Origin: Verrucomicrobiia bacterium
Lineage (GTDB): Bacteria > Verrucomicrobiota > Verrucomicrobiia > Limisphaerales > UBA11358
Length of the DNA stretch: 61,321 nucleotides
Assembly: GCA_041482195.1 (NCBI GenBank)
Contig: JBGPDH010000001.1
Span: forward strand, 1 to 61,321
Reading direction: 5' to 3'
Under the pieces are notes generated by a model. The model saw nothing but the letters and a program-made list of their open reading frames with translations, did not search any database and was not told the origin of the DNA. Position 1 is the first letter of the stretch. Each line of letters opens with the position of its first letter. Of this stretch, positions 3,443 through 49,022 are shown in pieces. The position numbers and the translations under genes are program-made.

Positions 3443-3799
3443 TCAGTCGCCGCGGGCACGCTTTGAAATCGTAACGAAAATGGCAACAAGTTCATTTGCC
3501 TCCTGAAGCAACGGGGACAAACGCGTTCGGAAGACTACCTTTTCATCCATCAAAAGTTCAAGCCAATAAACGGTTTCGTCGGTTTCTTTCAGACAATCGC
3601 CAATTTTTGAAACGAACTCGGCCTTTGAACGCGCACGATTGGCCTCGCGATAATTTGCCCCGACTGAAGTCCCGGAGCGTAACACCTGCTTACCAAGAAC
3701 CTGTGCAACGGTTTCTTTGGGCAGCGCACAGTAAAGCCGTATTATTCGACGGGCGAAATCCTTTGTGCGTGCAGCGAGGTCTTTTTCTTCATTCTGCAT
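3443..3799 (-). CDS. Four-helix-bundle protein (23S rRNA intervening-sequence protein family)
   Basis: MQNEEKDLAARTKDFARRIIRLYCALPK ... LRSGTSVGANYREANRARSKAEFVSKIGDCLKETDETVYWLELL is the typical family signature. The longer ORF to 4027 overlaps gmhA and was trimmed to the ATG at 3799. Confidence 0.85.
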   Translation of the reverse strand: MQNEEKDLAARTKDFARRIIRLYCALPKETVAQVLGKQVLRSGTSVGANYREANRARSKAEFVSKIGDCLKETDETVYWLELLMDEKVVFRTRLSPLLQEANELVAIFVTISKRARGD

Positions 3800-3809
3800 T
3801 CTTCCTTCT

Positions 3810-4376
3810 TCATTTCCTGGGAAGTTTTTCCTCCACCATTTCGCAGAGCACGTGCATGAGCAGCTTGTGGCCTTCCTGAATGCGCGCGGTCTTGTCGCCC
3901 GGCACCAGGAGATCCAGCGTCGCCACGCCTTTGGTAAAACTGCCGTCACGGCCCAGAAAACAGATGCTTTCAATGCCTTCGCGTTTGGCTTCTTCGAGCG
4001 CCTTGAGCACGTTCTTTGACTTGCCACTGGTCGTTAACGCAATGAGCACGTCGCCTTTTTCGGCCAGACCACGGATTTGGCGGGCGAACATTTCGTCGAC
4101 GCTGTAATCGTTGCAAACGGCAGTCAGGAACCCGCCGTCGGCGGTCAGGGAAATGGCCGGATACGGCCGGCGATCTTCCACGAAGCGGCAGAGAAACTCC
4201 GAGGCCAGATGCGTGGCGTCCGAGGCGCTGCCGCCATTGCCGCAGGTGAGCAACTTGTGACCCGAAGTCAGACAACGCAGAACCATCTGGGCAGCACGAT
4301 TCAGCGGCTCTTCCAAATCCGCCAGTCCGCGAATAGTTTTAACGGAATCATCAATCGCCCGTTGCAAGAGAGTCAT
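3810..4376 (-). CDS. gmhA: D-sedoheptulose-7-phosphate isomerase (SIS domain)
   Basis: LLTCGNGGSASDATHLASEF ... DVLIALTTSGKSKNVL ... GHKLLMHVLCE. Confidence 0.9.
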   Translation of the reverse strand: MTLLQRAIDDSVKTIRGLADLEEPLNRAAQMVLRCLTSGHKLLTCGNGGSASDATHLASEFLCRFVEDRRPYPAISLTADGGFLTAVCNDYSVDEMFARQIRGLAEKGDVLIALTTSGKSKNVLKALEEAKREGIESICFLGRDGSFTKGVATLDLLVPGDKTARIQEGHKLLMHVLCEMVEEKLPRK

Positions 4377-33897: not shown

Positions 33898-36801
33898 TTA
33901 CGGGCTCTTGATACGGTAGAATGCCGGGGTCGCGATGGCAGTTGTATCCGTGTAAGAAAGCGAGCCGCCGGCGGCTCCGCCGGTCGGGTAACCGGTTACT
34001 ATCGCCGGCCAATTGGCCGAGGGACTCCCCATGACATTGGTCTTAAGCACAGAATAGGTCGCACCCGATGTTGAATTCCATGTCAGTATAAAGGAATGTC
34101 CGTTGGAAATGTAAACGGGGCTCGAAATGGTAATGCTGGGAAGAATGATATTCGTGGACGCGGCGACAATCTGGCCCGGGAACTGTGCCTGGAGGAAATT
34201 CAAGGGCGTCTGGCCTCCCGGCGGAGTAAAGCCGAGGACGGCCTGGGAAACATAAATCTTCATGCCCGGATTGATTTGGATCATGTTTGCCAGATTCGCC
34301 GAAATGGTGGTCAGTTGAGACAAGTCGAGCGTCAAAACGTACAAGGCGTTGCTTCCAGTGGTGCCGGAGAACACGAAAAGCGGTGTGAATTGAGGCAGAT
34401 AATTTTGAGCCGACAAGGCCAACGTACCGAGGGCTACGTTGTTGATAAAGCCAATCCCGCTTGGTCCGCGGTCCTCGCCGGCCCAAGTGGAATCAACCAC
34501 CGCGTTGTTTCCGGATGCCACGGAAAACAGAGTGGAACCCAACAAATCCCCGAATTGCGGTTTTATCGACAGATTAAAGCCATTAAAACAGATAAAAGAA
34601 CTCGCCCCGCCACCATCAGACAGCGAGTTGGTCACGTTGAAATTCAAACTGCCGCCGGCCAGGAGCGCAGACTGGCTTAAGTGCAGTGTGTTGGCGCTAA
34701 AGCTGGTATCCGCCCCTGAATAAATTGAATAATAATATGGCTGCTGGTTGATTTGGAAATTCTTGGCGCCACTGATTTCGATGGACCCGGCGGTAGCGGA
34801 GAAACTGCCATAGGTAAAGTTTAACGCATTACTGATCTGGATGTCTTGACTGGCAATGGTTTGACTGGCCGAAACGATGAATCCGCCATCGCTTTGGCCT
34901 GTCCCATTATTGACGAATTCGATATACGGTGCGGCGGTGTCATCACCAAAATGCGCGTTATTCGGAACGATCAGAGCTCCGTTATTGGTGAAATAACGAA
35001 GGTTGGGTGCTTGCGCAGCGGTCCAATCCTGGAGGATGTTGGAGAGGGACAATTGCCCCAACAAGGTGAGTCCCTGCCCATCGAGCAGCATGGTCTGAGC
35101 CACGGTCAGAGAATCGCTGATGGTGTTATTGGTGCTGTGCATCACCAGGTTCTGAACCGTGACCGGCACCACCGTGGAAAGCTGGCTGGCATCCACAACG
35201 AAGATCGAAAATCCTATGGCATTGGTGGTTATATTGGTGCCCTGCATCACCGGCTGCAGGTTCGTCCATACAGCGCTCCACAGGTTTACCGGGCCGCGCA
35301 GCCGGGAAACCACTTTTTTGGCCATATTGGTCAGATTCAAAAAGCCGTTGGTGGCACCCAGATAAAAACTCAAATTCTGGCAATCCACAATGGCGCCGGA
35401 GCTGCTCACCAGGTTGCTGGTCTGGATAAGAATACCTCCCTGAGCACCCAGCCAAGTCCGGGTAAGGTCCAGGTTGTCGGCGCTAATTTGAATCACTCCG
35501 GGCAGGTTGGTCACTATCGCCGCTGCCGGTTCTGTCGCCAAATTATCAACAAAAACGCCGTAGGCACTATAGGTATTGGACACCGTGGTAAAAGCGTAAG
35601 GCGGGGACGGCGGGCCCTTATAAAAGGATGCGTCCGGCTTCCCGGCACCCACCGTACCGGCACTAAACGCCGGCAAGCCGGTCTGAGAAACAATGGGTTC
35701 AGTACGGGATACGATGTAATTGGCGGGCTGGTAGACCTTGCCGCTGCAAAGGGAGAAGGAGCTGACATTGGTGTCCACAAATAATCCCCGGTTGGTTTCC
35801 GAGCCCAAAGTATCCACCAGATAAACCGTGTTGGTAAAGAGGGCGAGGGTAAATGGATTGGTCAACGTGGCCGACAGTTTTACCGCCGCCGTTTGAAAAC
35901 CGTTTGACACCATAGAACTGGGAGTAAACCTGATCTGCGCGGTAATGCCACCGCTGGCAGTTTTGACAAAAACCGCCTGGCGCACTTCATTCGTGGGGAT
36001 TGTGGTGTTATCGAGCGAGTCAGACACGGTCGGCTGAAAGAACAGCGATGGACCGAAAGCATAGTTGGTCGAACAGTTGTTCTGCACCCCGTAAGAGGGT
36101 GCGATTACGATGCTTCCATCCCACAGCGTCACGGTATTCAGCAAGGGAATGTGTATCCCCGGCGGCAAGTCAGCCGGCGCATTGGTTTGGACCCAGTTTG
36201 TGGCAAAAAGCCCCTGGTCGAGGGCAAAATTTGTTCCGCTGATAAAACCGCTGGCGAGCAGAGAGCCGTTGATCAACAATTGGCTGCGGGACAGGTTGAC
36301 CATGCCGCCAGTTAACACGATTTGACCGTTGGGGTCGGCCTCGAGCAGCCCTTTATTCACGATATTCGTCGCCGACACCCAGAGATAACTCGCCGTGGAT
36401 AAATTCTGGGAACCGGGCGGATTGCGAACGGTGCCATCAATTGCCCGAATGGTCGCGCTGGCACTGTTATTATTAAAATTGGCCGACCAACCACGCCCCC
36501 CGATCAGGGGAAGCGGTCCGTAGTCGAATTCCCAGCCGACCGAACTCAACATCGTGCCGGTGTTGGTGTAGTTGAGTGTGTGGGAGGTCTTGTAAGGAAG
36601 CACCACACCGATAGCCCAGGTTCCGGAATTTAAAAAGTTCGTGGCGTCAACATTGGGAATGTTGTTGTTATCGATCGACCCGGTGTTGTTGTAGGTCGAA
36701 TCCGTGGCCATCCCGGTCATCGGAGTCAAAAACACACCCGCCAGCAGCAACAGGACATGCCTCCCCAGTCGCCCGACAGTTTTGGAAAAGTTCAATTTCA
36801 T
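33898..36801 (-). CDS. Giant secreted protein 3 of 3 (967 aa), N/T/S/G-rich beta-strand repeat protein, unknown function
   Basis: Signal peptide (LLLLAGVFLTPMTGMA), no catalytic motif seen, and a C-terminal W...FYRI module. Starts 15 nt after the upstream gene. Confidence 0.75.
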   Translation of the reverse strand: MKLNFSKTVGRLGRHVLLLLAGVFLTPMTGMATDSTYNNTGSIDNNNIPNVDATNFLNSGTWAIGVVLPYKTSHTLNYTNTGTMLSSVGWEFDYGPLPLIGGRGWSANFNNNSASATIRAIDGTVRNPPGSQNLSTASYLWVSATNIVNKGLLEADPNGQIVLTGGMVNLSRSQLLINGSLLASGFISGTNFALDQGLFATNWVQTNAPADLPPGIHIPLLNTVTLWDGSIVIAPSYGVQNNCSTNYAFGPSLFFQPTVSDSLDNTTIPTNEVRQAVFVKTASGGITAQIRFTPSSMVSNGFQTAAVKLSATLTNPFTLALFTNTVYLVDTLGSETNRGLFVDTNVSSFSLCSGKVYQPANYIVSRTEPIVSQTGLPAFSAGTVGAGKPDASFYKGPPSPPYAFTTVSNTYSAYGVFVDNLATEPAAAIVTNLPGVIQISADNLDLTRTWLGAQGGILIQTSNLVSSSGAIVDCQNLSFYLGATNGFLNLTNMAKKVVSRLRGPVNLWSAVWTNLQPVMQGTNITTNAIGFSIFVVDASQLSTVVPVTVQNLVMHSTNNTISDSLTVAQTMLLDGQGLTLLGQLSLSNILQDWTAAQAPNLRYFTNNGALIVPNNAHFGDDTAAPYIEFVNNGTGQSDGGFIVSASQTIASQDIQISNALNFTYGSFSATAGSIEISGAKNFQINQQPYYYSIYSGADTSFSANTLHLSQSALLAGGSLNFNVTNSLSDGGGASSFICFNGFNLSIKPQFGDLLGSTLFSVASGNNAVVDSTWAGEDRGPSGIGFINNVALGTLALSAQNYLPQFTPLFVFSGTTGSNALYVLTLDLSQLTTISANLANMIQINPGMKIYVSQAVLGFTPPGGQTPLNFLQAQFPGQIVAASTNIILPSITISSPVYISNGHSFILTWNSTSGATYSVLKTNVMGSPSANWPAIVTGYPTGGAAGGSLSYTDTTAIATPAFYRIKSP

Positions 36802-39144: not shown

Positions 39145-41148
39145 TCACTGGCGCAGGAGCATCACGCGGTAATAGCCCGCGGAACTCTTGCCGATAAAAA
39201 TCGAATCACTGGTGCCCGCCGAGAACCTGGGCGACCCCAGATTGCTCCACGCCCCGAGGTTCGTCGCCGCCTGCACCTGATAGGTCAATCCCGGCTGGGT
39301 GTTCCAACTGAGGAACAAGCCCTGGGGCGTGTTGCTGAGGGTCGTTCGCAGCCAGGTGCCGGGATCCAGCGGATTGCCGCCACTCAGGAACACCTGCAAC
39401 AGGGTCGGCCCGCCTGGAGCCAGCACCGTGTTTGCCCCCGGCCACTTGCTGATGTCGCTGCCGTAATATTGCGTCATCCATTCAAACGGAATCCCGCCCC
39501 AGTTATACCCCTGCCACGTCGTGCCGCTGGCGGACGGCGACAGCGGTGACTTCCGGCCATCCTGCGTCAGGTAATCCACGCGGAACGAATGGGTGCTGCT
39601 GGCCGTCAGACCATTTGCGGACGTCATCGTCCATACGTTGCTGGAGGTGGTTGCCGTTGGATTGGGTGAACCATCCACATATATTTCGTAGTTGGAAATC
39701 GAAAGTCCGGTCACGGGCGTCCACGATACGACCAATTGCGGCTGATACGCGTTGCTGACGATGACAAACGGCGCATAGACAAAGGGTGCCGGAAGCGGTT
39801 CCAGCGGTTGCAGGGTATTGATATAACGTTGCGCGAACAGATCGAATCCGTACGTCAGGCCGGTGAAACTGCTCCATAGCGACAGAAACTGACTGACCCC
39901 ATCCGAAACGACCACTGGCTGGATCTGCGAGCCGGCCGTGGTGGTATTGACGCGGAATTCGGTGCTGACCACTGAACCATTACCGCGGAGAAATTGTCCA
40001 TAGGCCCCTTCCCGCGAGCCGTCCTGCGCCAGACTCGTCCAGACAATCAAATAATCCGTTCCCAGCGCGGCAATGCGCGGAGTGAATTGGTCGCCGAACC
40101 GGTATGAATTGACCCGCATTACCGTGCCACCGATATCGGCACTTGAAAACCCACGGGCGTAAACGTCCATGCTGTTGGTAAAGGTGCTGGTCAGATCACG
40201 TGCGTCCCAGGCGATCACGAAACCGCCATCCGAACCGGCAGCCACGGCGGGGTCATCACATGGATTTGAATCCACATCTACGAGAAACTCATTTCCCTGA
40301 GCCGTCCCACTGCCGTTGTAAGACCTGGCATAAATATCCACGCTGGGAAAGGTGACGGCCGTGCTGGGGGTTCCACCGGCCGGATTGGCAATATTGACCT
40401 GTGTGCGCTCCTGTTCGGACACCCAGGTGGCGATAAATCCGCCGTTGACCAATGCTACCACCGCCGGGGCACGCTGGTTGAAGGCGTAATTGGGATTGTT
40501 GGCCGGGTCAAACTGATTGATTAAAAATTCACCGGTGACGGGTGTCCCCGCCGGCGAAAAGATCCGGCCATAAACATCCTGCATGCTTCCGGGGGCGGCT
40601 TCACTGAAACTGGCCCAGACTACGATGACATTTCCGTGGGGGAGAGTGGCCACCGCGGGGGTAATTTGGAAATAATTGGTAGAAGTGTTGACCATCACAT
40701 CACCGGTAAGCCAGGTGTTGCTGGAAGATAAAAATCGTGCGTAGATATGCTGGAACCCTTTGGGTCCGCCTTGCCAGACAAACGCCGCGCCGCCGCTTCG
40801 CAGCAAGGTCACCCTCGGATTTTCCTGATCCCCGGCACCTTGGACGTTAACGCGGAAGGAACTGCCGGAACCGGAAAGCGTCCCGTTCAACTGCATCGTA
40901 CTCACTCCCCAGCCGTCACCGTCGGTGATGTTGTCCTGCCAGACTGTAAAACCGCCGCCGGGCGTTACGGCCACGTCCGGATGAACCTGATCACCCGCCT
41001 GCGGTCCGACCATGGCATATTCCGTCCCGTTCGTCGCGTAATAGTTCGTCTGGCCCCCAACCACGACCGGAAGCGCAAGTATCCACCCCCAGCAAAGGCC
41101 AACAACAACCTGGCGGCTGAATAATCCCGATTGGATGGCGGTACTCAT
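39145..41148 (-). CDS. Giant secreted protein 1 of 3 (667 aa): seven-repeat propeller-like region, FN3, C-terminal module
   Basis: Signal peptide, seven ~55-aa repeats (GDQxxPxVA ... GGFxVxW ... D[VI]YxR), an FN3-like segment (LVVSWTPVTGLSISNYEIYVDG), IPFEWMTQYYG, and W...YYRV at the end. Confidence 0.75.
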   Translation of the reverse strand: MSTAIQSGLFSRQVVVGLCWGWILALPVVVGGQTNYYATNGTEYAMVGPQAGDQVHPDVAVTPGGGFTVWQDNITDGDGWGVSTMQLNGTLSGSGSSFRVNVQGAGDQENPRVTLLRSGGAAFVWQGGPKGFQHIYARFLSSSNTWLTGDVMVNTSTNYFQITPAVATLPHGNVIVVWASFSEAAPGSMQDVYGRIFSPAGTPVTGEFLINQFDPANNPNYAFNQRAPAVVALVNGGFIATWVSEQERTQVNIANPAGGTPSTAVTFPSVDIYARSYNGSGTAQGNEFLVDVDSNPCDDPAVAAGSDGGFVIAWDARDLTSTFTNSMDVYARGFSSADIGGTVMRVNSYRFGDQFTPRIAALGTDYLIVWTSLAQDGSREGAYGQFLRGNGSVVSTEFRVNTTTAGSQIQPVVVSDGVSQFLSLWSSFTGLTYGFDLFAQRYINTLQPLEPLPAPFVYAPFVIVSNAYQPQLVVSWTPVTGLSISNYEIYVDGSPNPTATTSSNVWTMTSANGLTASSTHSFRVDYLTQDGRKSPLSPSASGTTWQGYNWGGIPFEWMTQYYGSDISKWPGANTVLAPGGPTLLQVFLSGGNPLDPGTWLRTTLSNTPQGLFLSWNTQPGLTYQVQAATNLGAWSNLGSPRFSAGTSDSIFIGKSSAGYYRVMLLRQ

Positions 41149-42347: not shown

Positions 42348-42995
42348 CTATTGCGGAGGCAACGTCACCATTTTGTCGGTTTCCTTTGCCTGCCCGGCCC
42401 CCGGCGGTTGCGGCGGAATCGCATTTTGTGCAAACGGCAGTTCGTCGTCCGAATGAAGCCGGTTGCCGGCGGGATCCACAATCGTCGCGGTGACAAAAAT
42501 CATCAGATTCTTTTTGACCGCAATCTTGTTCTGGCTTTGAAAGAGACGGCCGACAATCGGCAAATCGCCCACCACTGGCACCTTGTCTTTCTCGGTCTGG
42601 GTCGAGGTGAGGATCATTCCGCCCAGAATGACTGTCTGGCCATCCCAAATGTTCACCGTGGTGAGGACCTGTCGAATACTAAAGCTCGGTAAAATGACCG
42701 GCAATTGGACCACATTCAGGCCACCCGTCACATTGGCGATATCGGGTGGCGTTTGGTAGCCGGCGAATTCGGTCACCGAGGGGATCAGGGTCAGGTTGAT
42801 CGTGTATCCGTCGGAAAGAACATAGGGCACGACGTCCAGCAACGGACCGGTTTCGATCGCCTGGGTGGTCGGCGTAATGGCCGAGACACCGGGGACAAAG
42901 GTGTTGTTTTGTGCCTGGGTCATTCTGGTGGCGCCCAACGCAACCGACAGGCCCAGCATCAGTTTGAAAATTTTATTTGTGGTATGTATTTTCAT
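42348..42995 (-). CDS. Secretin C-terminal half encoded as a separate ORF with its own signal peptide
   Basis: MKIHTTNKIFKLMLGLSVALGATRMTQAQ, then secretin blocks LLDVVPYVLSDGYTINLTLIPSV, VNIWDGQTVILGGM, KVPVVGDLPIVGRLF and NLMIFVTATIV. Confidence 0.75.
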   Translation of the reverse strand: MKIHTTNKIFKLMLGLSVALGATRMTQAQNNTFVPGVSAITPTTQAIETGPLLDVVPYVLSDGYTINLTLIPSVTEFAGYQTPPDIANVTGGLNVVQLPVILPSFSIRQVLTTVNIWDGQTVILGGMILTSTQTEKDKVPVVGDLPIVGRLFQSQNKIAVKKNLMIFVTATIVDPAGNRLHSDDELPFAQNAIPPQPPGAGQAKETDKMVTLPPQ

Positions 42996-43015
42996 CTTTG
43001 GTGGCGAGAAATATT

Positions 43016-45313
43016 TTAAGGAGTGGTGCCCGTGGTGGTCGCAGCCTGCCCTTGCTGGAAGCTGAAGCCCGTGATTACCGTTATGACCAGCGTGGCCCGC
43101 ATTTCGGTTTGCCGACCGCTGGTGGTGGTCACCTCCGGTTCCGCGAGTTCTTCAAAGCCGCTGCGCTGCTCCAGGGCGTGAAGCACGACGCGGAAATTGG
43201 GATTGGTTAAAATGCCGGTGATGGTGGCCAGGGTGGGAAGAGTCGCGTTCGCCGGCGCATTGGGGGTCGTCCCATTAGGCCCAAATATCTGCTGGTCCGA
43301 CGCTGAAGAGGGAATCTGATTGGCACCCGTCGGCCCGGGGAACGGGACCGTCGAGCCTCCGGGGCCGGGAACATTAAGTGACGGCGCACTGCCGCCCTGG
43401 GCGGCAACCGAATGCCCGATATTGAACTGTCCCAGATACCAATCGAACCCCAAACCCGCATTGTCATCCTGTTCAACCTGAATGAACCGGGACTTGATAT
43501 GAACCTGCGGGGCCACCTGGTTTAATGCCTGAATCGCACTTTCAATGGTGTCCAAATCCTGCATGGTCGCTCGAACAAACAACAACCCCAACCGATCATT
43601 GAAGAAAATATTTTTGGGCGGGAACAAATTTACACCCAACGTTGAGAAAAAGTCCCGGGCGGCTATGCTGACATCCACCATACTGTTGGTAAGAGTCACA
43701 TAATTCAATCCGCCGTTGCCGTTTTGACCACCCCCGCCACCCCCACCCCCGCCACCTCCGCCACCCCCGCCGCTGGAGCGATTGCCTGAACCTGGCGCCG
43801 CGTTGACAACTGCCAACAGGCCCACCGACGTGCTATTATTGCCACCACTGCTACCGCCGCCGCCACCTCCACCGCCGCCACCTCCACCGCCGCCACTACT
43901 GCCACTTCCACCGCTGCCGCTACTGTTAACAAATTGGAGTGACCCGACACTTGCCAGGCCCTGCACGAATGTATTGGCATCTATTTTGAAAGTCCGCGCG
44001 AAAAGCTGGGGAGAACGGGGTCCTTTGGCCGAGAAAACAACGGCATATTCATTAATGGAATATTCAATGGGATGATCCGCAACCTCTACAATCGCATCCA
44101 GCGCATCCGCCATCCGCACATCGTTAAGCGCCGGGTTGATCCGGACAATGACCGAATTGATATCCACGGACTCGGATCCGGTTGACGATGCCGAGGCGAT
44201 CGGCAGGCCGGTCGCCGGGTCAATTGCGCCGCCGCCGCCGCCGGCTCCGGCAGGGGCCCCTCCGGGGCCGCCAAATGGGGAACCCGCCCCGCCGGTGGGT
44301 GTGGTCGTGGTTACGGATGCGGAATTGTCCGTGTTGGGATTAATCAGAAAGTTGATGCCGATCTTGTCAGGGTCGCGCAGTTTGGCCTGTTCGCTCAAGT
44401 TGCGAACGACTTCGCTCAACGGAAGGCCGTCGTAAATCACCGTGTCGAGCCGTATGCGGTTCAGTTTGCTCATGATCACTTCCCGACCTGGCCCCGTATG
44501 GATGAGGTTGGTGGTGGCATACGAATTGGGCGTGGGCAAAGCTCCACTTTTTCTCAAACCGGAATCCGCCCATGCCTTGGTCACCTCTGTAATGCGACCC
44601 TGGTTGTCGTAGTCCTTGATGCGCTCCTGCCTCGCGTAAATGCCTTGTTTGCACAGGCTCAGATAATAAAAAGCGCCTTGATTGACCGGGTCCAGCTTCA
44701 CCGCCTGTTGCAATTTGGCTTCGGCTTCTTCAAATTTGCCCATCTCGTAAAGCAGTTTGCCATCCCGAACCAGTGTGTCTGCGTCGGTCTTCTGATTGGC
44801 AATGGCCTGCGCCTGTTGAACCGTCGCGTCGTCCGGCACTTTCCCGCGCATCGCGGCAATCTTCTCGTCATTCTCCTTCTTGAAAGCGATGGCCGCGGGA
44901 TTCTGTGGGTCTACCTTCAAAACGCGATTGACCTGCGTGTCGGCCTCCCGCAAATCGTCGCGCTGCTGCGCTTCCCGGGCCAGTTCCATTCTCACCGCTA
45001 CCAGCCCGGAAATGGTTTCCGCGGATTCGTCCGAAATTCCGGAACCAATCGATTGCACCAGACTGTAGGCATCCTCGTAAAGCCGGGCGGCGACCGCCAG
45101 GTCACCACGGGCGGCAGCGTCCTTGGCTTGCACCAGCTTCTGACGCAGGACCACGGTGTTGGCCTGTCGTAACACCGCCTCGCTGACGGCCGTGTCAGCG
45201 ACACTGTTTGTCTGGGCGGGCGACAAGAGGGTGCCGGCCGCTATGAAGAGGATCCCGAGTGAAACAGAAACTACTTTTGTCATGGATGAATTCGGGTTAG
45301 TCGGTGTCAGCAT
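43016..45313 (-). CDS. Secretin N-terminal part: signal peptide, TPR-like region, N-domains, poly-Gly tracts, first half of the secretin domain
   Basis: N0/N1-like RIRLDTVIYDGLPLSEVVRNL and LLFVRATMQDLDTIESAIQALN. Secretin-domain onset QVHIKSRFIQVEQDDNAGLGFDW. It ends after LAEPEVTTTSGRQTEMRATLV with TAA at 43016. Confidence 0.8.
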   Translation of the reverse strand: MLTPTNPNSSMTKVVSVSLGILFIAAGTLLSPAQTNSVADTAVSEAVLRQANTVVLRQKLVQAKDAAARGDLAVAARLYEDAYSLVQSIGSGISDESAETISGLVAVRMELAREAQQRDDLREADTQVNRVLKVDPQNPAAIAFKKENDEKIAAMRGKVPDDATVQQAQAIANQKTDADTLVRDGKLLYEMGKFEEAEAKLQQAVKLDPVNQGAFYYLSLCKQGIYARQERIKDYDNQGRITEVTKAWADSGLRKSGALPTPNSYATTNLIHTGPGREVIMSKLNRIRLDTVIYDGLPLSEVVRNLSEQAKLRDPDKIGINFLINPNTDNSASVTTTTPTGGAGSPFGGPGGAPAGAGGGGGAIDPATGLPIASASSTGSESVDINSVIVRINPALNDVRMADALDAIVEVADHPIEYSINEYAVVFSAKGPRSPQLFARTFKIDANTFVQGLASVGSLQFVNSSGSGGSGSSGGGGGGGGGGGGGGSSGGNNSTSVGLLAVVNAAPGSGNRSSGGGGGGGGGGGGGGGQNGNGGLNYVTLTNSMVDVSIAARDFFSTLGVNLFPPKNIFFNDRLGLLFVRATMQDLDTIESAIQALNQVAPQVHIKSRFIQVEQDDNAGLGFDWYLGQFNIGHSVAAQGGSAPSLNVPGPGGSTVPFPGPTGANQIPSSASDQQIFGPNGTTPNAPANATLPTLATITGILTNPNFRVVLHALEQRSGFEELAEPEVTTTSGRQTEMRATLVITVITGFSFQQGQAATTTGTTP

Positions 45314-45344: not shown

Positions 45345-46139
45345 TCATTTGGAATTGTACGGTCGCGTTATCTTTTTCTGGTTCGATTTGGCGGATAGTA
45401 CCACCTCGTTCTGGTTTATGGCAACGATAATGTAATCATCGCCCGCAAATTTTAGATCATCCCCCACACGCTGTCCTTCCCAGTTCCTTCCCTCGGGACT
45501 GTATTTCAAATCCGCCAGGTAGGCGTCCGCACGCCGGAAGGGTTTGTTCCTGGATAAGCTCACCGTCTCACCGGAATCCGTCAGCTGCAAAACCAATTGG
45601 GTCGGGTCCGCGGGCGGCCCCTGCACCGCGGTGATGGTGAAGGCGTCATTTTTTTCGCCGATGGAGGCGTAATGTTGCCGTTTCGCCCGCCGCCACGCCA
45701 CCGGCTCGGCCTGGCGCTCCACGCCCACAATGTAGCGCGCGCCGAATTGATTGGTCTGCACCGAATCCAGTGTCAGGATGAAGTACAAGGGCGCAACCCG
45801 GGTCACGGCCACGGCATCGGGGCCGATCTCGTTGCCACTCTCAATCTTGATCAGGCTTCCGTCCACTGCTTTTTGCCACTCGACCGGATTGAAGAGCCGG
45901 TTGGTCGTCTCCAAATCGAGCCGGTAAGACAGTTGCAACCGCTGCATGGTGTTGCTCTCCGTCGTCAAATCCAACACCGGAAGCGGTTTGACCGGATGCC
46001 TGATGATGCCAGTGCGGGTTTCTTCCAGTTGGTTGCGGTCATGCAAAATCATGAACGGCAAAAACACCATGGCCCCCACCAAACCGAACAACACTACGCC
46101 CAGGAGAATTTTTTCGTAATGTTTTTTAAGGAAATCCAT
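45345..46139 (-). CDS. TM-anchored beta-rich protein in the PilP position (Amuc_1099-like by position)
   Basis: One N-terminal TM segment (ILLGVVLFGLVGAMVFLPFMIL). It sits between the Amuc_1100-like gene and the secretin. The assignment is positional only. Confidence 0.45.
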   Translation of the reverse strand: MDFLKKHYEKILLGVVLFGLVGAMVFLPFMILHDRNQLEETRTGIIRHPVKPLPVLDLTTESNTMQRLQLSYRLDLETTNRLFNPVEWQKAVDGSLIKIESGNEIGPDAVAVTRVAPLYFILTLDSVQTNQFGARYIVGVERQAEPVAWRRAKRQHYASIGEKNDAFTITAVQGPPADPTQLVLQLTDSGETVSLSRNKPFRRADAYLADLKYSPEGRNWEGQRVGDDLKFAGDDYIIVAINQNEVVLSAKSNQKKITRPYNSK

Positions 46140-46143
46140 GCGC

Positions 46144-47085
46144 TTAGTTTCCCGACGTCAATTTCACTATTTCAACCTGCAAGGTGACGCTCAAAAGCTG
46201 CTCGTCGAGCACCGTCTGCAGGCCGCCCCTGCCCGGAGGTGCCGCAGGCCGACTGGCAGGCGCTGCCGGCCGTGCATAAGCAGGCACCTCAGGCTCGCCG
46301 AATGTAGGTGAGCCGGGAGACGGCGAAGTGGTGGTGGCGCCGGCCGCCGGTTGCACATTTATGGCTTTGACGATGAACCCATGCGGCGAGATCGCAAAGC
46401 TCGACAACACCTTCGCCAGGTCCTGACTGAAACAACGAAAGGTAACTTCATAAGGGGTAATAACGGCAAGCTCATTGGTTATTGTCGGGTGATCAGTATA
46501 ATCGGCTTGCGGTCCGACCGCGTCATCATCCGAAGCCCGTACACGTCGAATCCCATCCAGCGCATTAATCCTCGCCGCATAAAGAAGTTCACAAATCATT
46601 TTTACCTCGCCCAGCTGTTGCGACAACGCGGTCAGGGTGCCAGGGGCGAATTTTACCGAGGTTCGTTCCGCTTCAAATGAGAAGCCATACTGGGGCGGCA
46701 AAGTGACACTGGCATTGTTCGCTTCCGCCTGCAACTGGCTGAGGATGTGATCGCGCGCGGCGGCAAATCTGGCATCGGTGATCGCGCCTTTCGCGGGATC
46801 CGGTATGGGTGGAATGGGCTGAAAATATTGCCCGGCTTGCTGGATCCATTGCTGCAACTGTTGTTGCTGCACTCGGGCGGCCTGGATGTTGTCAATCGTG
46901 TCATTGCCCGGCGATGGATTTTGGGCGCTCAACCTTTTCAACGTCTCATACGTTTGATTCAGCGCATCCAGTGCCGTGTTATTGCGTTGCCAGTTCTGGT
47001 AATCATAAACCCCCGCCGCCGCCAGCAAGCCCGCGGCAATGACAGCACCGACGACAAAAAACAAATTTCGTTTAATCCAGGCCAT
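46144..47085 (-). CDS. Amuc_1100-family pilus-like protein (PilO position)
   Basis: N-terminal TM segment, helical region, mixed alpha/beta core (GEVKMICELLYAARINALDGIRRV ... YEVTFRCFSQDLAKVLSSF), Pro/Ala-rich linker, and terminal strand LSVTLQVEIVKLT. This matches the architecture I recall for Akkermansia Amuc_1100. Confidence 0.6.
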   Translation of the reverse strand: MAWIKRNLFFVVGAVIAAGLLAAAGVYDYQNWQRNNTALDALNQTYETLKRLSAQNPSPGNDTIDNIQAARVQQQQLQQWIQQAGQYFQPIPPIPDPAKGAITDARFAAARDHILSQLQAEANNASVTLPPQYGFSFEAERTSVKFAPGTLTALSQQLGEVKMICELLYAARINALDGIRRVRASDDDAVGPQADYTDHPTITNELAVITPYEVTFRCFSQDLAKVLSSFAISPHGFIVKAINVQPAAGATTTSPSPGSPTFGEPEVPAYARPAAPASRPAAPPGRGGLQTVLDEQLLSVTLQVEIVKLTSGN

Positions 47086-47086
47086 G

Positions 47087-48904
47087 CTACAAATTCAAAG
47101 GGTTGCGCAGCACCGCTGAAACTCCAAAGGTGAACGTGCCGGAGGCATCTTCCGGATTGATCTGACCGGTCAGTTGTGTCGTTTTGGGATCAAAAAGGGA
47201 ACTCGTCTGCAATTCGTTCTCCAGCGTGTACGCGATGTCACTGTTCGCCGCCGGATCGACCTTGGACAAACTCACCGCCCGGCAAACCACGGAGATGGCG
47301 CCCGGCCTGGTGGATGAAGATTGGTTTTGCGCCGGGTTCATCGCTCCGCCGGCCAACTCGTTGTCCGACGGCACTCCGACCGGCATCCCCGGCCTGCCCG
47401 GGACGTTGGGCGCGGAGAGGGTTGTCCGCATGGTAATGAATTGTTCGATCCAAATTCCCGCCTGCACCCCCCCCCGCTGCGCAGACATTTTCTTTTGAAC
47501 ATCATTCTCAGCACGGATGAGCACCCGTCGCAAGTCCGCCAGGATATCACTCCAGTAATACCGATCGTTCATCCAGGCACTGATTTGTTCGGCTTGCTGC
47601 CGGGTGGCACCGACTTGCCCGTAAACCTTGTTGAACTGGTCGGCCTTGGTTTGCAGTTTTTGAACCTCCGGCTTGAGGCGTTCCAGCTCGTCCTCTTTCG
47701 ATATGGCCAGTTTTTCGAAGAGGAACCCGACCGCAAACGCCACCGCCACCAGACTGAACACCGTTGCCGTGAAATACGGTTTCTTTTCGTTGAAAGTGCG
47801 CCAGCGCAGCGTGCTCTCCGGCATCAGGTTCATTTCCACCGGACAGTTCGCCAGATTGCGCAGGCCCAGGCCGACAACTTCCCCCAGAGAATGGGCGACG
47901 CGCGCCAGTTCCTCCAGGTTCACCGCCGGATCGATCTGCACATTACGGAAGGGATTGAAGTATTCGACCGGCGCGTTCAGTTTCTCAGCAAAAAATTGCG
48001 CCGTATACGGCATGATGGAAGCCCCGCCGGCCAGGAAGAGCCGTTGCGGTGCCGCTCCGCCCATCTGGCCGCGATAAAACTGAATCGTCTGGTTGACCTG
48101 AATGTGCAGCTTGGTCATGAACTGCCGGGCAATCTTGGAAATCGCCGCCTGATTGGGATTCTCCGGTTCTTCGTAGGCACCGCCCAGACTGACGAAACCT
48201 TCAGCCACTTTGATTTGCTCGGCGACTTCAAATCTCAGCTTCGCCTCGTTCGCAAAATCCTGGGTGATGGAATTGGCACCCAGGTTGATGCTGCGGGCAA
48301 ACACTTTGCCTTTTTCGAAGAAGAGCAGGTTGCTGGTCTTGGCGCCGATGTCCAGCAACAGCGTGCAATCCTCCAGGTCCCCATAGTTGTAGCGAAATGC
48401 GTTGCAGAGCGCCGCCGGTGACACGTCGCACAATTGCAACCGCAACTTCGCCTCCTCGGCAATCCGGAACAATCCCTCCACAATCTCCGACTTGATGGCC
48501 ACCAACAACACTTCCAGTTCCCCCGTCGGACTCGAACCCAGAATTTGGTAGTCCCACACCACTTCCGCCAGCGGGAACGGCACATTCTGTTGCGCCTCGT
48601 ACTGGATGATTTGCGTCACCTTGCCCGCGTCCACCGGCGGGAGTTTGACGAATTTGGAAAACACCTGAAAACCGGGTGCGCAGACATTGATGTTCCGTGC
48701 TGCGCCGCCGGTTTCCGCCAGCGTTTCCCGCAGCACCTTGAGCAAGGCCGTTTCGCGCGAGGCGTCCGACGCCCCCTCCGGTCCCAATGACTTCAACTTG
48801 AAATTCTTCAGGCAGAGGATGCCGGCTTCGTTGATTTCAAAGATTGCCAGTTTGAGACTGCCGGCCCCGAAATCCACTGCCAAAAATGACTTTAAGTTAA
48901 GCAT
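47087..48904 (-). CDS. pilM: PilM-like actin-fold ATPase fused to a PilN-like TM/coiled-coil region (Amuc_1101-like)
   Basis: LAVDFGAGSLKLAIFE, LLLDIGAKTSNLLFF, LFLAGGASIMP, then a TM segment (YFTATVFSLVAVAFAVGFLF) and a coiled coil. An ATG start is chosen; a TTG at 48934 is also possible. Confidence 0.8.
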   Translation of the reverse strand: MLNLKSFLAVDFGAGSLKLAIFEINEAGILCLKNFKLKSLGPEGASDASRETALLKVLRETLAETGGAARNINVCAPGFQVFSKFVKLPPVDAGKVTQIIQYEAQQNVPFPLAEVVWDYQILGSSPTGELEVLLVAIKSEIVEGLFRIAEEAKLRLQLCDVSPAALCNAFRYNYGDLEDCTLLLDIGAKTSNLLFFEKGKVFARSINLGANSITQDFANEAKLRFEVAEQIKVAEGFVSLGGAYEEPENPNQAAISKIARQFMTKLHIQVNQTIQFYRGQMGGAAPQRLFLAGGASIMPYTAQFFAEKLNAPVEYFNPFRNVQIDPAVNLEELARVAHSLGEVVGLGLRNLANCPVEMNLMPESTLRWRTFNEKKPYFTATVFSLVAVAFAVGFLFEKLAISKEDELERLKPEVQKLQTKADQFNKVYGQVGATRQQAEQISAWMNDRYYWSDILADLRRVLIRAENDVQKKMSAQRGGVQAGIWIEQFITMRTTLSAPNVPGRPGMPVGVPSDNELAGGAMNPAQNQSSSTRPGAISVVCRAVSLSKVDPAANSDIAYTLENELQTSSLFDPKTTQLTGQINPEDASGTFTFGVSAVLRNPLNL

Positions 48905-49022
48905 TGCTGTGTTTGCGCCGTGCACTGCCGACAAAAGGGCGCTTGAACTTTTACCGTCTATAAGTACAGCCCGTGTTCAGTACTGTAAATTTTCTGGACG
49001 GTCAAACACAAAACTTGGAAAA

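What the first reader, a model, noticed from the sequence alone, without database searches (positions are those of the whole stretch)
42348..45313. Secretin domain split across two ORFs, the second carrying a fresh signal peptide
Seen: ORF 43016-45313 carries the N-domains and the opening blocks of a secretin C-domain (QVHIKSRFIQVEQDDNAGLGFDW ... LAEPEVTTTSGRQTEMRATLV) and then stops at TAA. Twenty nt later, ORF 42348-42995 opens with a plausible Sec signal (K-rich n-region, LMLGLSVALGA core, TQA-Q) and continues with the missing secretin blocks (LLDVVPYVLSDGYTINLTLIPSV, VNIWDGQTVILGGM, KVPVVGDLPIVGRLF, NLMIFVTATIV). Established: secretins (PF00263) are single polypeptides that build the multimeric barrel from one contiguous domain. 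Inference: this is either a genuine two-chain secretin, in which each half is exported separately and the barrel assembles in trans, or a recently broken gene. The newly acquired signal peptide argues against simple decay.
Basis: partly seen in the sequence, partly recalled or inferred. Interest (0 to 1): 0.78.

Follow-up and report, generated by a model that had tools for sequence, protein, structure and literature searches.

The report
Conserved two-gene split pilus secretin
In a large group of uncultured Verrucomicrobia, the outer-membrane pore of a type IV pilus-like machine is encoded by two adjacent genes, cut at the tip of the pore's inner gate, and the second half has its own export signal; this is an old, selected arrangement, not a broken gene.

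Summary
ORF1 (43016-45313, minus strand, 765 aa) ends at TAA. Twenty nt later, in another frame, ORF2 (42348-42995, 215 aa) begins.

**Complementary halves.** The two ORFs cover non-overlapping parts of one secretin: GspD HMM 301-464 and 472-591; PF00263 positions 44-169 lie on ORF2.

**Not an error or recent decay.**
- The same 2966 nt occur in two other assemblies.
- About 72 of 80 related species genomes carry the same split, as do relatives down to about 51% identity.
- Spacers are 6-61 nt and use all three relative frames.
- dN/dS is about 0.04-0.24 on both halves.
- 66 of 69 ORF2 homologues start with a Sec-type signal ending A|Q.

**Comparison with contiguous relatives.** These lack only the stop, spacer and signal peptide. 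The number of mature residues in the loop is unchanged.

**Position of the break.** It sits at the apex of the central-gate hairpin, inside the barrel domain.

**Precedent.** The known rhizobial T3SS split (RhcC1/RhcC2) leaves the barrel domain whole, so this case is different.

**Evolution.** Contiguous forms are nested among split ones, which implies at least two re-fusions.

Separate export and assembly in trans are inferred, not shown. I rate this a new variant of a known kind.

The parts
43016..45313 (-). ORF1, the N-terminal secretin chain (765 aa; 755 aa if translation starts at Met11). It carries its own signal peptide, a TPR region, Gly-rich linkers, an N3-like domain and the first roughly 43 profile positions of the secretin barrel domain.
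   Evidence: GspD HMM 301-464; Amuc_1098 family 16-376. Gene calls of 755 and 765 aa in two other assemblies.
45215..45283 (-). Probable signal peptide of ORF1 (MTKVVSVSLGILFIAAGTLLSPA|Q), counted from the second Met.
   Evidence: Read from the sequence. Contiguous relatives start MTKA.... Cleavage is inferred.
44645..44956 (-). TPR region in the N-terminal part of ORF1, pilotin-like (PilW-type).
   Evidence: TPR_16, TPR_2 and TPR_11, E 4e-7 to 5e-6. TIGR02521 PilW, E 7e-5, below its cut-off.
43058..43222 (-). The secretin-domain strands that stay on ORF1 (ITGILTNPNFRVVLHALEQRSGFEELAEPEVTTTSGRQTEMRATLVITVITGFSF). The last 12 residues form the ascending arm of the central-gate hairpin.
   Evidence: alignment to GspD structures. 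(strand E175-186 in the AF2 model of contiguous homologue P0384). Mean pairwise identity 0.73 among split relatives.
43019..43057 (-). C-terminal tail of ORF1 (QQGQAATTTGTTP). It is the ORF1 share of the gate-tip loop.
   Evidence: The tail is T/G/A-rich and usually ends TP, TQ or VP in relatives. It maps to the low-confidence loop 187-211 of the model.
43016..43018 (-). TAA stop codon of ORF1.
   Evidence: The stop is TAA in 66 and TGA in 6 of 72 related loci.
42996..43015 (-). 20-nt A/T-rich spacer between the two genes.
   Evidence: Spacers are 6-61 nt in relatives, use all three relative frames, and have mean GC 0.34. GC falls to 0.27 here. No promoter-like or terminator-like site on this strand.
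42348..42995 (-). ORF2, the C-terminal secretin chain (215-aa precursor).
   Evidence: 2006 homologues at E below 1e-5; the best 120 are all 194-230 aa.
42912..42995 (-). Sec-type (signal peptidase I) signal peptide of ORF2, MKIHTTNKIFKLMLGLSVALGATRMTQA|Q.
   Evidence: Basic n-region, hydrophobic core, small residue at -1. Equivalent features in 66 of 69 homologues; the sequence itself diverges (dN/dS 0.3-0.9). No Cys, so no lipobox. Absent from contiguous relatives. Cleavage is inferred.
42819..42911 (-). Mature N-terminus of ORF2. QNNTFVPGV is the ORF2 share of the gate-tip loop. SAITPTTQAIETGPLLDVVPYV is the descending arm of the central-gate hairpin.
   Evidence: It aligns to strand E212-232 of the AF2 model. 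The Gly of ETGP aligns with the second gate glycine of V. cholerae GspD.
42474..42890 (-). PF00263 match on ORF2 (residues 36-174, profile 44-169 of 169), the remaining three quarters of the barrel domain.
45345..48934 (-). Upstream genes of the same cluster: a PilM_2/FtsA-like gene (47087-48934), an Amuc_1100-family gene (46144-47085) and a 264-aa gene (45345-46139).
   Evidence: Pfam marks come from the 99.95%-identical locus L086. The same gene order is seen in relatives.

Best explanation
This is a stably inherited gene fission of the Amuc_1098/PilQ-type secretin of a type IV pilus-like cluster.

**What each gene encodes.** ORF1 encodes a signal peptide, a TPR region, linkers, an N3-like domain and the first strands of the barrel domain. 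It ends in the ascending arm of the central-gate hairpin. ORF2 is co-transcribed 20 nt downstream. It encodes its own Sec signal peptide, then the descending arm of the same hairpin and the rest of the barrel.

**Proposed mechanism (inferred).** Each chain is exported through Sec and its signal is cut off after Ala (..TQA|QNN). The two chains then pair by antiparallel beta-strand complementation. The result is a protomer equivalent to a normal secretin subunit with a nick at the flexible apex of the gate loop. This protomer multimerises into the outer-membrane channel.

**History.** The fission arose by gain of a stop, a short spacer and a signal peptide inside a long, low-complexity gate loop, with no loss of mature residues. 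It is ancient in a clade of Verrucomicrobia subdivision 3 (Limisphaerales-type MAGs) and was reverted by deletion at least twice.

**Shown:** the anatomy, the complementarity, the conservation, the selection and the position of the break. **Inferred:** cleavage, separate export, trans assembly and function.
For: **Complementary coverage.** HMM coverage of the two ORFs is complementary and non-overlapping.

**Conservation.**
- The best 120 ORF2 homologues, down to 66% identity, are all about 215 aa.
- 80 species-level loci were examined. About 72 have ORF1, a stop, a 6-61-nt spacer and ORF2.
- The same operon is seen in relatives.
- Split members with the same ...TP* tail and a signal peptide exist at 51-55% identity.

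**Against recoding.** The relative frame of the two ORFs is 0, 1 or 2 in 34, 10 and 28 loci. 16 of the 34 in-frame spacers hold further stops.

**Signal peptide.** 68 of 69 homologues have a net positive n-region. The median hydrophobic core score is 2.57 (Kyte-Doolittle). 66 of 69 have an A|Q site at residues 23-38.

**Selection.** In most of the 14 pairs, dN/dS is 0.06-0.24 for the ORF1 C-terminal part and 0.04-0.14 for mature ORF2 (two very close pairs with dS below 0.1 give 0.6-0.8). For the signal peptide it is mostly 0.3-0.9.

**Contiguous relatives.** L036, L063, L076, L078 and P0384 read straight through the loop without a signal peptide. The loop length is the same: 36-45 residues, against a median of 39 for tail plus mature head in split forms. 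L036 is 116-128 nt shorter than its split sisters at this site.

**Position of the break.**
- In the AF2 model of contiguous P0384 (pLDDT 76.9) the break maps to loop 187-211, between confident strands 175-186 and 212-232.
- The top 40 Foldseek hits are all secretins.
- The profile alignment to V. cholerae GspD places the break midway between the positions of G453 and G481, which bound the central gate (PMC10550240).

**ORF1 strands still conserved.** The strands of ORF1 that belong to the barrel have identity 0.73, against 0.53 for variable parts.

**Precedent and independent assemblies.** Split OmpA assembles in vivo from two exported fragments (PMC8987393). Identical sequence occurs in independent assemblies.
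Against: - There is no protein-level evidence for cleavage, export or association of the two chains.
- No SignalP-type predictor was available. The signal peptide rests on simple sequence features.
- The AF2 model is of a contiguous homologue as a monomer. It superposes poorly on solved protomers as a whole (TM about 0.3).
- No multimer prediction could be run.
- The first gate glycine of T2SS secretins is not conserved here (Thr in RAT), so the gate mechanics may differ.
- The tree is neighbour-joining on one gene. The base of the split clade is unresolved (ingroup monophyly in 4 of 100 bootstraps), so a single origin is likely but not proven.
- All relatives are MAGs. No function of this cluster is demonstrated outside Akkermansia.
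Confidence: 0.78

Rival explanations
1. Sub-functionalisation without strand complementation. ORF2 alone builds the outer-membrane barrel. ORF1 has become a separate periplasmic or pilotin-like scaffold (TPR plus N domains) that only docks under it. Its last strands are not part of the barrel wall or gate.
For: ORF1 carries pilotin-like TPRs. ORF2 holds three quarters of PF00263, including all the long strands. In the Rhc T3SS the N-domain protein and the barrel protein are separate.
Against: ORF2 lacks PF00263 positions 1-43, which every contiguous secretin has. The ORF1 segment that encodes them is among its best conserved parts (0.73 identity) and is under dN/dS of about 0.1. In the model of the contiguous homologue this segment forms a confident hairpin with the start of ORF2. 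Re-fusions restore exactly this connection.
Confidence: 0.12
2. Programmed recoding (frameshift or stop-codon read-through) joins the two ORFs into one polypeptide. The 'signal peptide' would then be an internal hydrophobic insert.
For: The ORFs are adjacent on one strand with a very short spacer. In 34 of 72 relatives they are in the same frame.
Against: The relative frame varies (0, 1 or 2), as do spacer length (6-61 nt) and spacer sequence. 16 of the 34 in-frame spacers have further stops. The stop is nearly always TAA. In the window every frame is closed across the junction apart from ORF2's own. A conserved basic, hydrophobic, A|Q segment right after an ATG is what an N-terminal signal looks like.
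Confidence: 0.02
3. A pseudogene: a recently broken secretin that is decaying.
For: A stop codon and a frame change interrupt a domain that is normally contiguous.
Against: The same break is kept across species whose synonymous sites are near saturation (dS 0.5-1.7), with dN/dS about 0.1 on both sides. It is also kept in lineages only 51% identical. No further disruptions are seen. ORF2 has a maintained start, signal peptide and A/T-rich initiation region.
Confidence: 0.02
4. An assembly or sequencing artefact in this contig.
For: Some long-read MAG relatives do show frameshift noise at this locus (L017, L024).
Against: Identical sequence occurs in two other assemblies from different sources. 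The same architecture is found in about 72 independent genomes from many studies. The difference from contiguous genes is a roughly 110-130-nt block encoding a signal peptide, not a 1-nt indel.
Confidence: 0.01

Closest known systems
Amuc_1098 (PilQ) of Akkermansia muciniphila and the NCBIfam family NF042912
   Same: Both halves have this family as their best NCBIfam match (186.8 and 128.7 bits). The architecture is the same: N-terminal TPR region, long linkers, C-terminal secretin domain. The neighbours are the same: a PilM/FtsA-like gene, an Amuc_1100-family gene and a small gene. Amuc_1098 is a 907-residue outer-membrane protein and the most abundant one in A. muciniphila (PMC4960237).
   Different: Amuc_1098 and most relatives of 800-1900 aa are single polypeptides. 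Here the gene is cut inside the barrel domain and the second part has its own signal peptide. Neither half reaches the family cut-off of 750 bits.
Split secretin of rhizobial-type T3SS (RhcC1/NolW plus RhcC2; HrcIIC1/C2 of Pseudomonas syringae)
   Same: It is a naturally split secretin encoded by two genes and conserved in a lineage. Its functional significance is unknown (PMC3574062, PMC3973906).
   Different: In pNGR234a, NolW (234 aa) holds only N0 plus one Secretin_N domain (SctC HMM 2-142). RhcC2 (475 aa) holds a complete PF00263 domain (1-169 of 169) behind Tad-like N domains. That split is therefore between domains, and the two genes are not adjacent. Here the break is within the barrel domain, at PF00263 position 43/44, at the gate apex. 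The genes are adjacent and the system is T4P-like.
Central gate of T2SS/T4P secretins (GspD, XcpD, PilQ structures)
   Same: The break lies in the hairpin that aligns with the central gate: V. cholerae GspD G453-G481 and XcpD 466-496 with its tip at 477/480. This region is flexible and poorly resolved in all maps.
   Different: The loop is longer here (about 46 residues against 27 between the two reference positions). It is T/G/A/Q-rich. It lacks the first pivot glycine. Its backbone is interrupted.
Engineered split OmpA
   Same: Two separately exported fragments of one outer-membrane beta-barrel pair in register in the periplasm and assemble in vivo (PMC8987393). This shows the proposed mechanism is physically feasible.
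   Different: That case is artificial, uses a monomeric 8-stranded Bam-dependent barrel, and assembles inefficiently without engineered disulfides. The present case is natural, conserved and part of a giant multimeric double-walled barrel.

Membership tests
Secretin superfamily (Pfam PF00263) | Significant match to the PF00263 profile | tested here: met
   ORF2 scores 89.3 bits against a cut-off of 27.5. The Foldseek top 40 hits of the contiguous homologue model are all secretins.
Secretin superfamily (Pfam PF00263) | The whole C-domain lies on one polypeptide | tested here: not met
   ORF2 covers profile positions 44-169 only. The first part is on ORF1: GspD HMM 301-464 against 472-591, MshL 3-160 against 159-290.
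Secretin superfamily (Pfam PF00263) | Periplasmic N3/ring-building domain directly upstream of the C-domain | tested here: inconclusive
   Pfam Secretin_N was not reported for ORF1 at E up to 0.1. The GspD, PilQ and MshL HMMs do align across this region. The AF2 model of P0384 shows beta-alpha-beta elements there.
Secretin superfamily (Pfam PF00263) | Forms a 12-15-mer gated channel in the outer membrane | not testable with these tools
   Needs biochemistry or cryo-EM.
Amuc_1098 family type IV pilus outer membrane protein (NCBIfam NF042912, equivalog) | Whole-protein score at or above the curated cut-off (750 bits) | tested here: not met
   ORF1 scores 186.8 bits (positions 16-376). ORF2 scores 128.7 bits (positions 645-804).
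Amuc_1098 family type IV pilus outer membrane protein (NCBIfam NF042912, equivalog) | Gene neighbourhood with PilM-like and Amuc_1100-family genes | tested here: met
   PilM_2/FtsA, then Amuc_1100 (PF28028), then a 264-aa gene, then ORF1, then ORF2, in the window's near-identical locus and in relatives.
Rhc-type split secretin (RhcC1/RhcC2) | Split between the N domains and an intact C-domain | tested here: not met
   NGR234 RhcC2 has PF00263 positions 1-169 of 169, and NolW has only N0 plus Secretin_N. Here the break is inside PF00263.
Rhc-type split secretin (RhcC1/RhcC2) | Part of a type III secretion gene cluster | tested here: not met
   The neighbours are T4P-like (PilM, Amuc_1100 family). 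No sct genes are called next to it in the roughly 20-kb locus L086, which is 99.95% identical to the window.
Sec/signal peptidase I signal peptide (on ORF2) | Basic n-region, hydrophobic h-region, small residues at -3/-1 | tested here: met
   The window sequence is MKIHTTNKIFK-LMLGLSVALGA-TRMTQA|Q. 68 of 69 homologues are net positive and 66 of 69 have an A|Q site. These are simple feature counts, not a trained predictor.
Sec/signal peptidase I signal peptide (on ORF2) | Actual cleavage and export | not testable with these tools
   Needs N-terminal proteomics of the mature protein (expected QNNTFVPGV..., possibly as pyroglutamate).
Lipoprotein (signal peptidase II) signal | Lipobox with an invariant Cys | tested here: not met
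   There is no Cys in ORF2 residues 1-40. A few relatives have ..ACA|Q, but the Cys is at -2 and is not conserved.

The most novel reading that the evidence does not exclude
The nick at the gate apex is adaptive rather than merely tolerated. It would give a secretin whose central gate is built from two non-covalently paired arms with free termini. That could change how the gate opens for the pilus, or make channel assembly depend on two separately supplied subunits, which would be a control point. On this reading the gate apex is a general permissive site at which any secretin could be split and reassembled.
Probability: 0.2. Interest if true: 0.8.

Novelty: new variant of a known kind. Interest (0 to 1): 0.6.

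Why it matters
Secretins are the giant gated pores of type II and III secretion, type IV pili and filamentous phage export. How they fold, insert and gate is still debated.

- **A ready-made experiment.** A natural, long-conserved version cut at the tip of the central gate shows that backbone continuity of the gate hairpin is dispensable. It also suggests that a quarter of the barrel domain can be supplied in trans. That offers a way to test assembly order and gating: free termini at the gate for labelling, and split or fused pairs from sister lineages.
- **Annotation.** ORF1-type proteins get no secretin domain call. Both halves miss the family cut-off and are mostly labelled 'hypothetical' or 'GspD'. 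Pilus machinery in this abundant soil and freshwater verrucomicrobial group is therefore easily mis-scored as lacking or truncating its secretin.
- **Evolution.** It is a clean example of gene fission that needed a new signal peptide, and of its reversal.

Tried and rejected
- **ORF1 homologue search.** I queried the ORF1 C-terminal 229 aa hoping for full-length ORF1-type and contiguous proteins. It returned almost only fragments of 160-400 aa. It did not give length statistics for ORF1, but it did yield the contiguous fragment P0384.
- **Rhc sequences.** The supplement of PMC3574062 held only an image, with no RhcC sequences. My first guess for the T3SS region of pNGR234a (470-520 kb) was wrong. 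The region was found at 50-100 kb.
- **PDB search with the joined halves.** phmmer with ORF1's last 55 residues joined to mature ORF2 residues 29-178 did not align the gate region. The contiguous relative and the family profile did.
- **Pivot glycine.** I first assumed the conserved 'TG' of VITG was the T2SS pivot glycine. Comparing 5wq8 with the G453A mutant 5wq9 showed the pivot is eight residues earlier and is Thr here.
- **Foldseek.** It confirmed the fold family, but TM-scores of about 0.3 make the monomer model useless for global geometry.
- **Promoter and terminator scan.** It found nothing on the coding strand between the ORFs.
- **Literature.** Searches for a split T4P or T2SS secretin found only the Rhc case.
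- **Not attempted.**
  - Testing the origin of the ORF2 signal peptide from ORF1's own signal peptide; the segments are too short for a meaningful test.
  - A second AF2 run on the joined window halves, which would add little beyond P0384.


Full report
**1. The observation**

ORF listing and direct reading confirm the layout.
- ORF1 runs 43016-45313 on the minus strand and is 765 aa. It ends ...LAEPEVTTTSGRQTEMRATLVITVITGFSFQQGQAATTTGTTP, followed by TAA.
- A 20-nt spacer follows.
- ORF2 runs 42348-42995 and is 215 aa. It starts MKIHTTNKIFKLMLGLSVALGATRMTQAQNNTF.
- The two ORFs are in different frames. ORF1's frame has several stops after the TAA. ORF2's frame has no start codon upstream of 42995.

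The profile searches show the two parts complete each other and do not duplicate.
- PF00263 hits only ORF2, at profile positions 44-169 of 169.
- The GspD model covers ORF1 at 301-464 and ORF2 at 472-591.
- The MshL model covers 3-160 and 159-290.
- The Amuc_1098-family model covers 16-376 and 645-804.

The operon is a PilM/FtsA-like gene, an Amuc_1100-family gene, a 264-aa gene, ORF1 and ORF2. This is the verrucomicrobial cluster known from Akkermansia, where Amuc_1098 (PilQ) is a single 907-residue outer-membrane protein (PMC4960237).

**2. Not an artefact and not recent decay**

The whole 2966-nt ORF1-ORF2 stretch is identical in an NCBI MAG and in a JGI metagenome contig. Those loci differ from the window at a few positions elsewhere.

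ORF2 has 2006 homologues at E below 1e-5. The best 120, down to 66% identity, are all 194-230 aa.

Two relatives at 73% and 66% identity show the same five-gene cluster. One has a 746-aa gene, a 25-nt gap and a 217-aa gene. The other has a 736-aa gene, a 12-nt gap and a 226-aa gene.

A scan of one genome per species returned 80 loci, almost all labelled Verrucomicrobiia, subdivision 3 or Limisphaerales. In about 72 of them an ORF1-type gene ends in a T/G/A-rich tail (typically ...GF[SN]FQQGTAATTTTGTTP) and a stop. A short spacer and an ORF2-type gene follow. The junction statistics are as follows.

| Feature | Value |
|---|---|
| Spacer length | 6-61 nt |
| Mean spacer GC | 0.34 |
| Stop codon | TAA in 66 loci, TGA in 6 |
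| Relative frame 0 / 1 / 2 | 34 / 10 / 28 loci |
| In-frame spacers with further stops | 16 of 34 |

This variation excludes a conserved frameshift or read-through.

More distant cluster representatives (51-55% identity) also have the ...TP* tail, a spacer and a signal peptide.

dN/dS was measured in 14 pairs. In most of them it is 0.06-0.24 for the ORF1 C-terminal part and 0.04-0.14 for mature ORF2, at dS up to saturation. Two very close pairs with dS below 0.1 give 0.6-0.8 for mature ORF2. The signal peptide mostly gives 0.3-0.9. Signal peptides typically conserve physical properties rather than sequence, and this fits that pattern.

**3. The signal peptide**

Of 69 ORF2 homologues, 68 have a net positive n-region. 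The median hydrophobic core score is 2.57 (Kyte-Doolittle, 10 residues). 66 have Ala|Gln after the core, at residues 23-38. There is no lipobox. GC falls to 0.27 over the spacer and the first codons, as expected for an initiation region. No promoter-like or terminator-like site lies between the ORFs on the coding strand. Cleavage itself is inferred.

**4. What exactly was inserted**

Four loci (L036, L063, L076, L078) and the fragment P0384 encode contiguous proteins. The junctions compare as follows.
- L036: ...GFSFQSPPASTSTGGGGTTINNPGPSAITVDDQQVETGPLLDV.
- Window: ...GFSFQQGQAATTTGTTP*, then [spacer][MKIHTTNKIFKLMLGLSVALGATRMTQA], then QNNTFVPGVSAITPTTQAIETGPLLDV.

The number of residues between the conserved TG and ETG is the same in both states. 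Split forms have a median of 39, counting the tail plus the mature head. Contiguous ingroup members have 36-45. More distant long secretins have 21-39. The split therefore equals a stop, a spacer and a signal peptide added inside a low-complexity loop, with nothing lost. L036 is 116-128 nt shorter than its split sisters at this point.

**5. Where the break sits**

- Alignment of a contiguous relative to ETEC GspD (5w68) places the loop opposite ...LTGSTVGSNNSNPFNTVERKKVG....
- The family profile was aligned to V. cholerae GspD. Comparing wild type (5wq8) with the G453A mutant (5wq9) identifies the pivot glycine as the G of FIVGEEVPVITGS. This position is the Thr of RATLVITVITG in ORF1. G481 aligns with the Gly of ETGP in ORF2.
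- These two glycines bound the central gate. In XcpD the gate is residues 466-496, with residues 477 and 480 at its tip, and the region is flexible and poorly resolved in all maps (PMC10550240).
- Here about 25 residues of the gate come from ORF1 and 21 from mature ORF2. The nick is at the apex.
- An AF2 model of contiguous P0384 (mean pLDDT 76.9) shows confident strands 175-186 and 212-232 joined by a loop of lower confidence at 187-211. The ORF1 end and the mature ORF2 start both map into that loop.
- Foldseek gives only secretins among the top 40 hits. TM-scores are low, so the monomer model says nothing about global geometry.

**6. Evolution**

In a neighbour-joining tree of the concatenated conserved parts, L036 is nested among split sequences in 100 of 100 bootstraps. 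In 95 of them it sits in a clade of six or fewer members that includes split forms. L063, L076 and L078 form a clade (97 of 100) that is also nested (92 of 100).

The parsimonious reading is one old fission and at least two re-fusions by deletion. The alternative requires many independent fissions at the same site with similar MK..K.NK... signals. The base of the clade is unresolved (ingroup monophyly in 4 of 100 bootstraps). This is a single-gene distance tree, so the counts are provisional.

Beyond the clade, 50%-identity representatives are mostly 800-1900-aa proteins that match at their C-terminus.

**7. How it most likely works**

The barrel-domain strands left on ORF1 remain well conserved (0.73 mean identity, against 0.53 for variable inserts). 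In the contiguous homologue they pair with the first strand of ORF2. I therefore propose the following.
- Both chains are exported by Sec.
- The ORF2 signal is removed after Ala.
- The chains associate by strand complementation along the gate hairpin.
- They assemble into the usual multimer, which carries a nick at each gate tip.

Split OmpA shows that two exported barrel fragments can pair in register in the periplasm and assemble (PMC8987393). Adjacent genes with a short A/T-rich spacer would favour co-expression.

It is open whether the nick is merely tolerated or changes gating. Transitions in both directions and the unchanged loop length argue for near-neutrality. The long persistence of the split is equally compatible with an advantage.

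**8. Comparison with what is known**

A 'split secretin' is already described for rhizobial-type T3SS (PMC3574062, PMC3973906). I fetched pNGR234a to compare.
- NolW/RhcC1 (234 aa) has only N0 and one Secretin_N domain.
- RhcC2 (475 aa) has a complete PF00263 domain behind Tad-like N domains.
- The two genes are far apart.

That is a split between domains. The present case is a split within the barrel domain, between adjacent genes, in a T4P-like system. I found no report of such a case, but the searchable library is limited.

I file the pair as the orthologue of the Amuc_1098/PilQ-type secretin in function and context. It does not meet the family's single-protein cut-off.

**9. Verdict**

The corrections are that the signal is old and that a different kind of split secretin was already known.
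- Novelty: a new variant of a known kind.
- Interest is moderate to high for secretin and outer-membrane biogenesis specialists, and lower outside that field.

Noticed in passing
L017 (CAVXLF010000012.1) about 3730-4010; L024 (CAVWHM010000027.1) about 3480-4000: In two long-read MAG relatives the ORF1 end is frameshifted. In L017 the ORF1 frame reads through the spacer into the ORF2 signal peptide (...QQGSAAVASRHRHSINQSIFCNRKMKNHK...), with another frame break upstream. This looks like indel noise in T/C-rich runs rather than a third gene state.
   Followed up: partly
L042 (CAITTG010000049.1) 3682-3896: The spacer between ORF1 and ORF2 is 208 nt here. It contains about five tandem copies of a roughly 28-nt unit (CTTGTGATTTACCAATACTGGAATCCCTTA-like).
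   Followed up: no
L075 (DASRCU010000119.1) 3715-4000: The ORF2 homologue has a long N-terminal extension (from MKSHDSLLFPAEISRSGDCC...) before a short signal-like segment (MAGILGAAVAARA|QVV). The true start is unclear. It is the only clear outlier among 69.
   Followed up: partly
window 43709-43777, 43841-43924, 44225-44293 (- strand): ORF1 has three Gly-rich tracts, including runs of 14-15 Gly. Relatives have comparable low-complexity linkers. The opposite strand therefore shows a spurious poly-Pro ORF (43782-44075).
   Followed up: no
window 43085-43093 (ORF1 residues R-A-T of EMRATLV): The first pivot glycine of the T2SS central gate (V. cholerae GspD G453; its Ala mutant is partly open) aligns to Thr in this family. 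The second (G481) is conserved as the Gly of ETGP.
   Followed up: partly
L085 (pNGR234a NC_000914.2) 46093-48096 and 34372-35076: RhcC2 of NGR234 has the architecture of a Tad-type secretin (T2SS-T3SS_pil_N, BON, full PF00263) and sits next to a CpaD-family lipoprotein gene. NolW has only SctC-type N0 and N1. The rhizobial 'split secretin' may therefore be a chimera of a T3SS N-part and a Tad-like barrel protein rather than a simple fission.
   Followed up: partly
window 45283-45313: The ORF1 start is ambiguous. The first ATG gives 765 aa and Met11 gives 755 aa. Two near-identical assemblies were called differently, and relatives start at the MTKA... position.
   Followed up: partly
window 45395-45477 (- strand): Two sigma-70-like promoter matches lie inside the end of the 264-aa gene, just upstream of ORF1. 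They hint at a possible internal promoter for the two secretin genes. These are consensus matches only (6 found in the scanned region against 2.8 expected).
   Followed up: no
window 39145-41148 and further downstream (- strand); L001, L003, L086: Downstream of the 5'-3' exonuclease gene lies a conserved syntenic run of large proteins with no Pfam hit (about 667, 743-778 and 967-1074 aa). It follows the secretin pair in the window's near-identical copy (L086) and in the relatives L001 and L003.
   Followed up: no
ORF2 homologues, position +1 after the predicted cleavage site: Gln is almost invariant at +1 of the predicted mature ORF2 (66 of 69), and ORF1's own signal also ends ..PA|Q. Contiguous relatives have no Gln at the equivalent loop position. 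An N-terminal pyroglutamate on the gate arm is possible.
   Followed up: no
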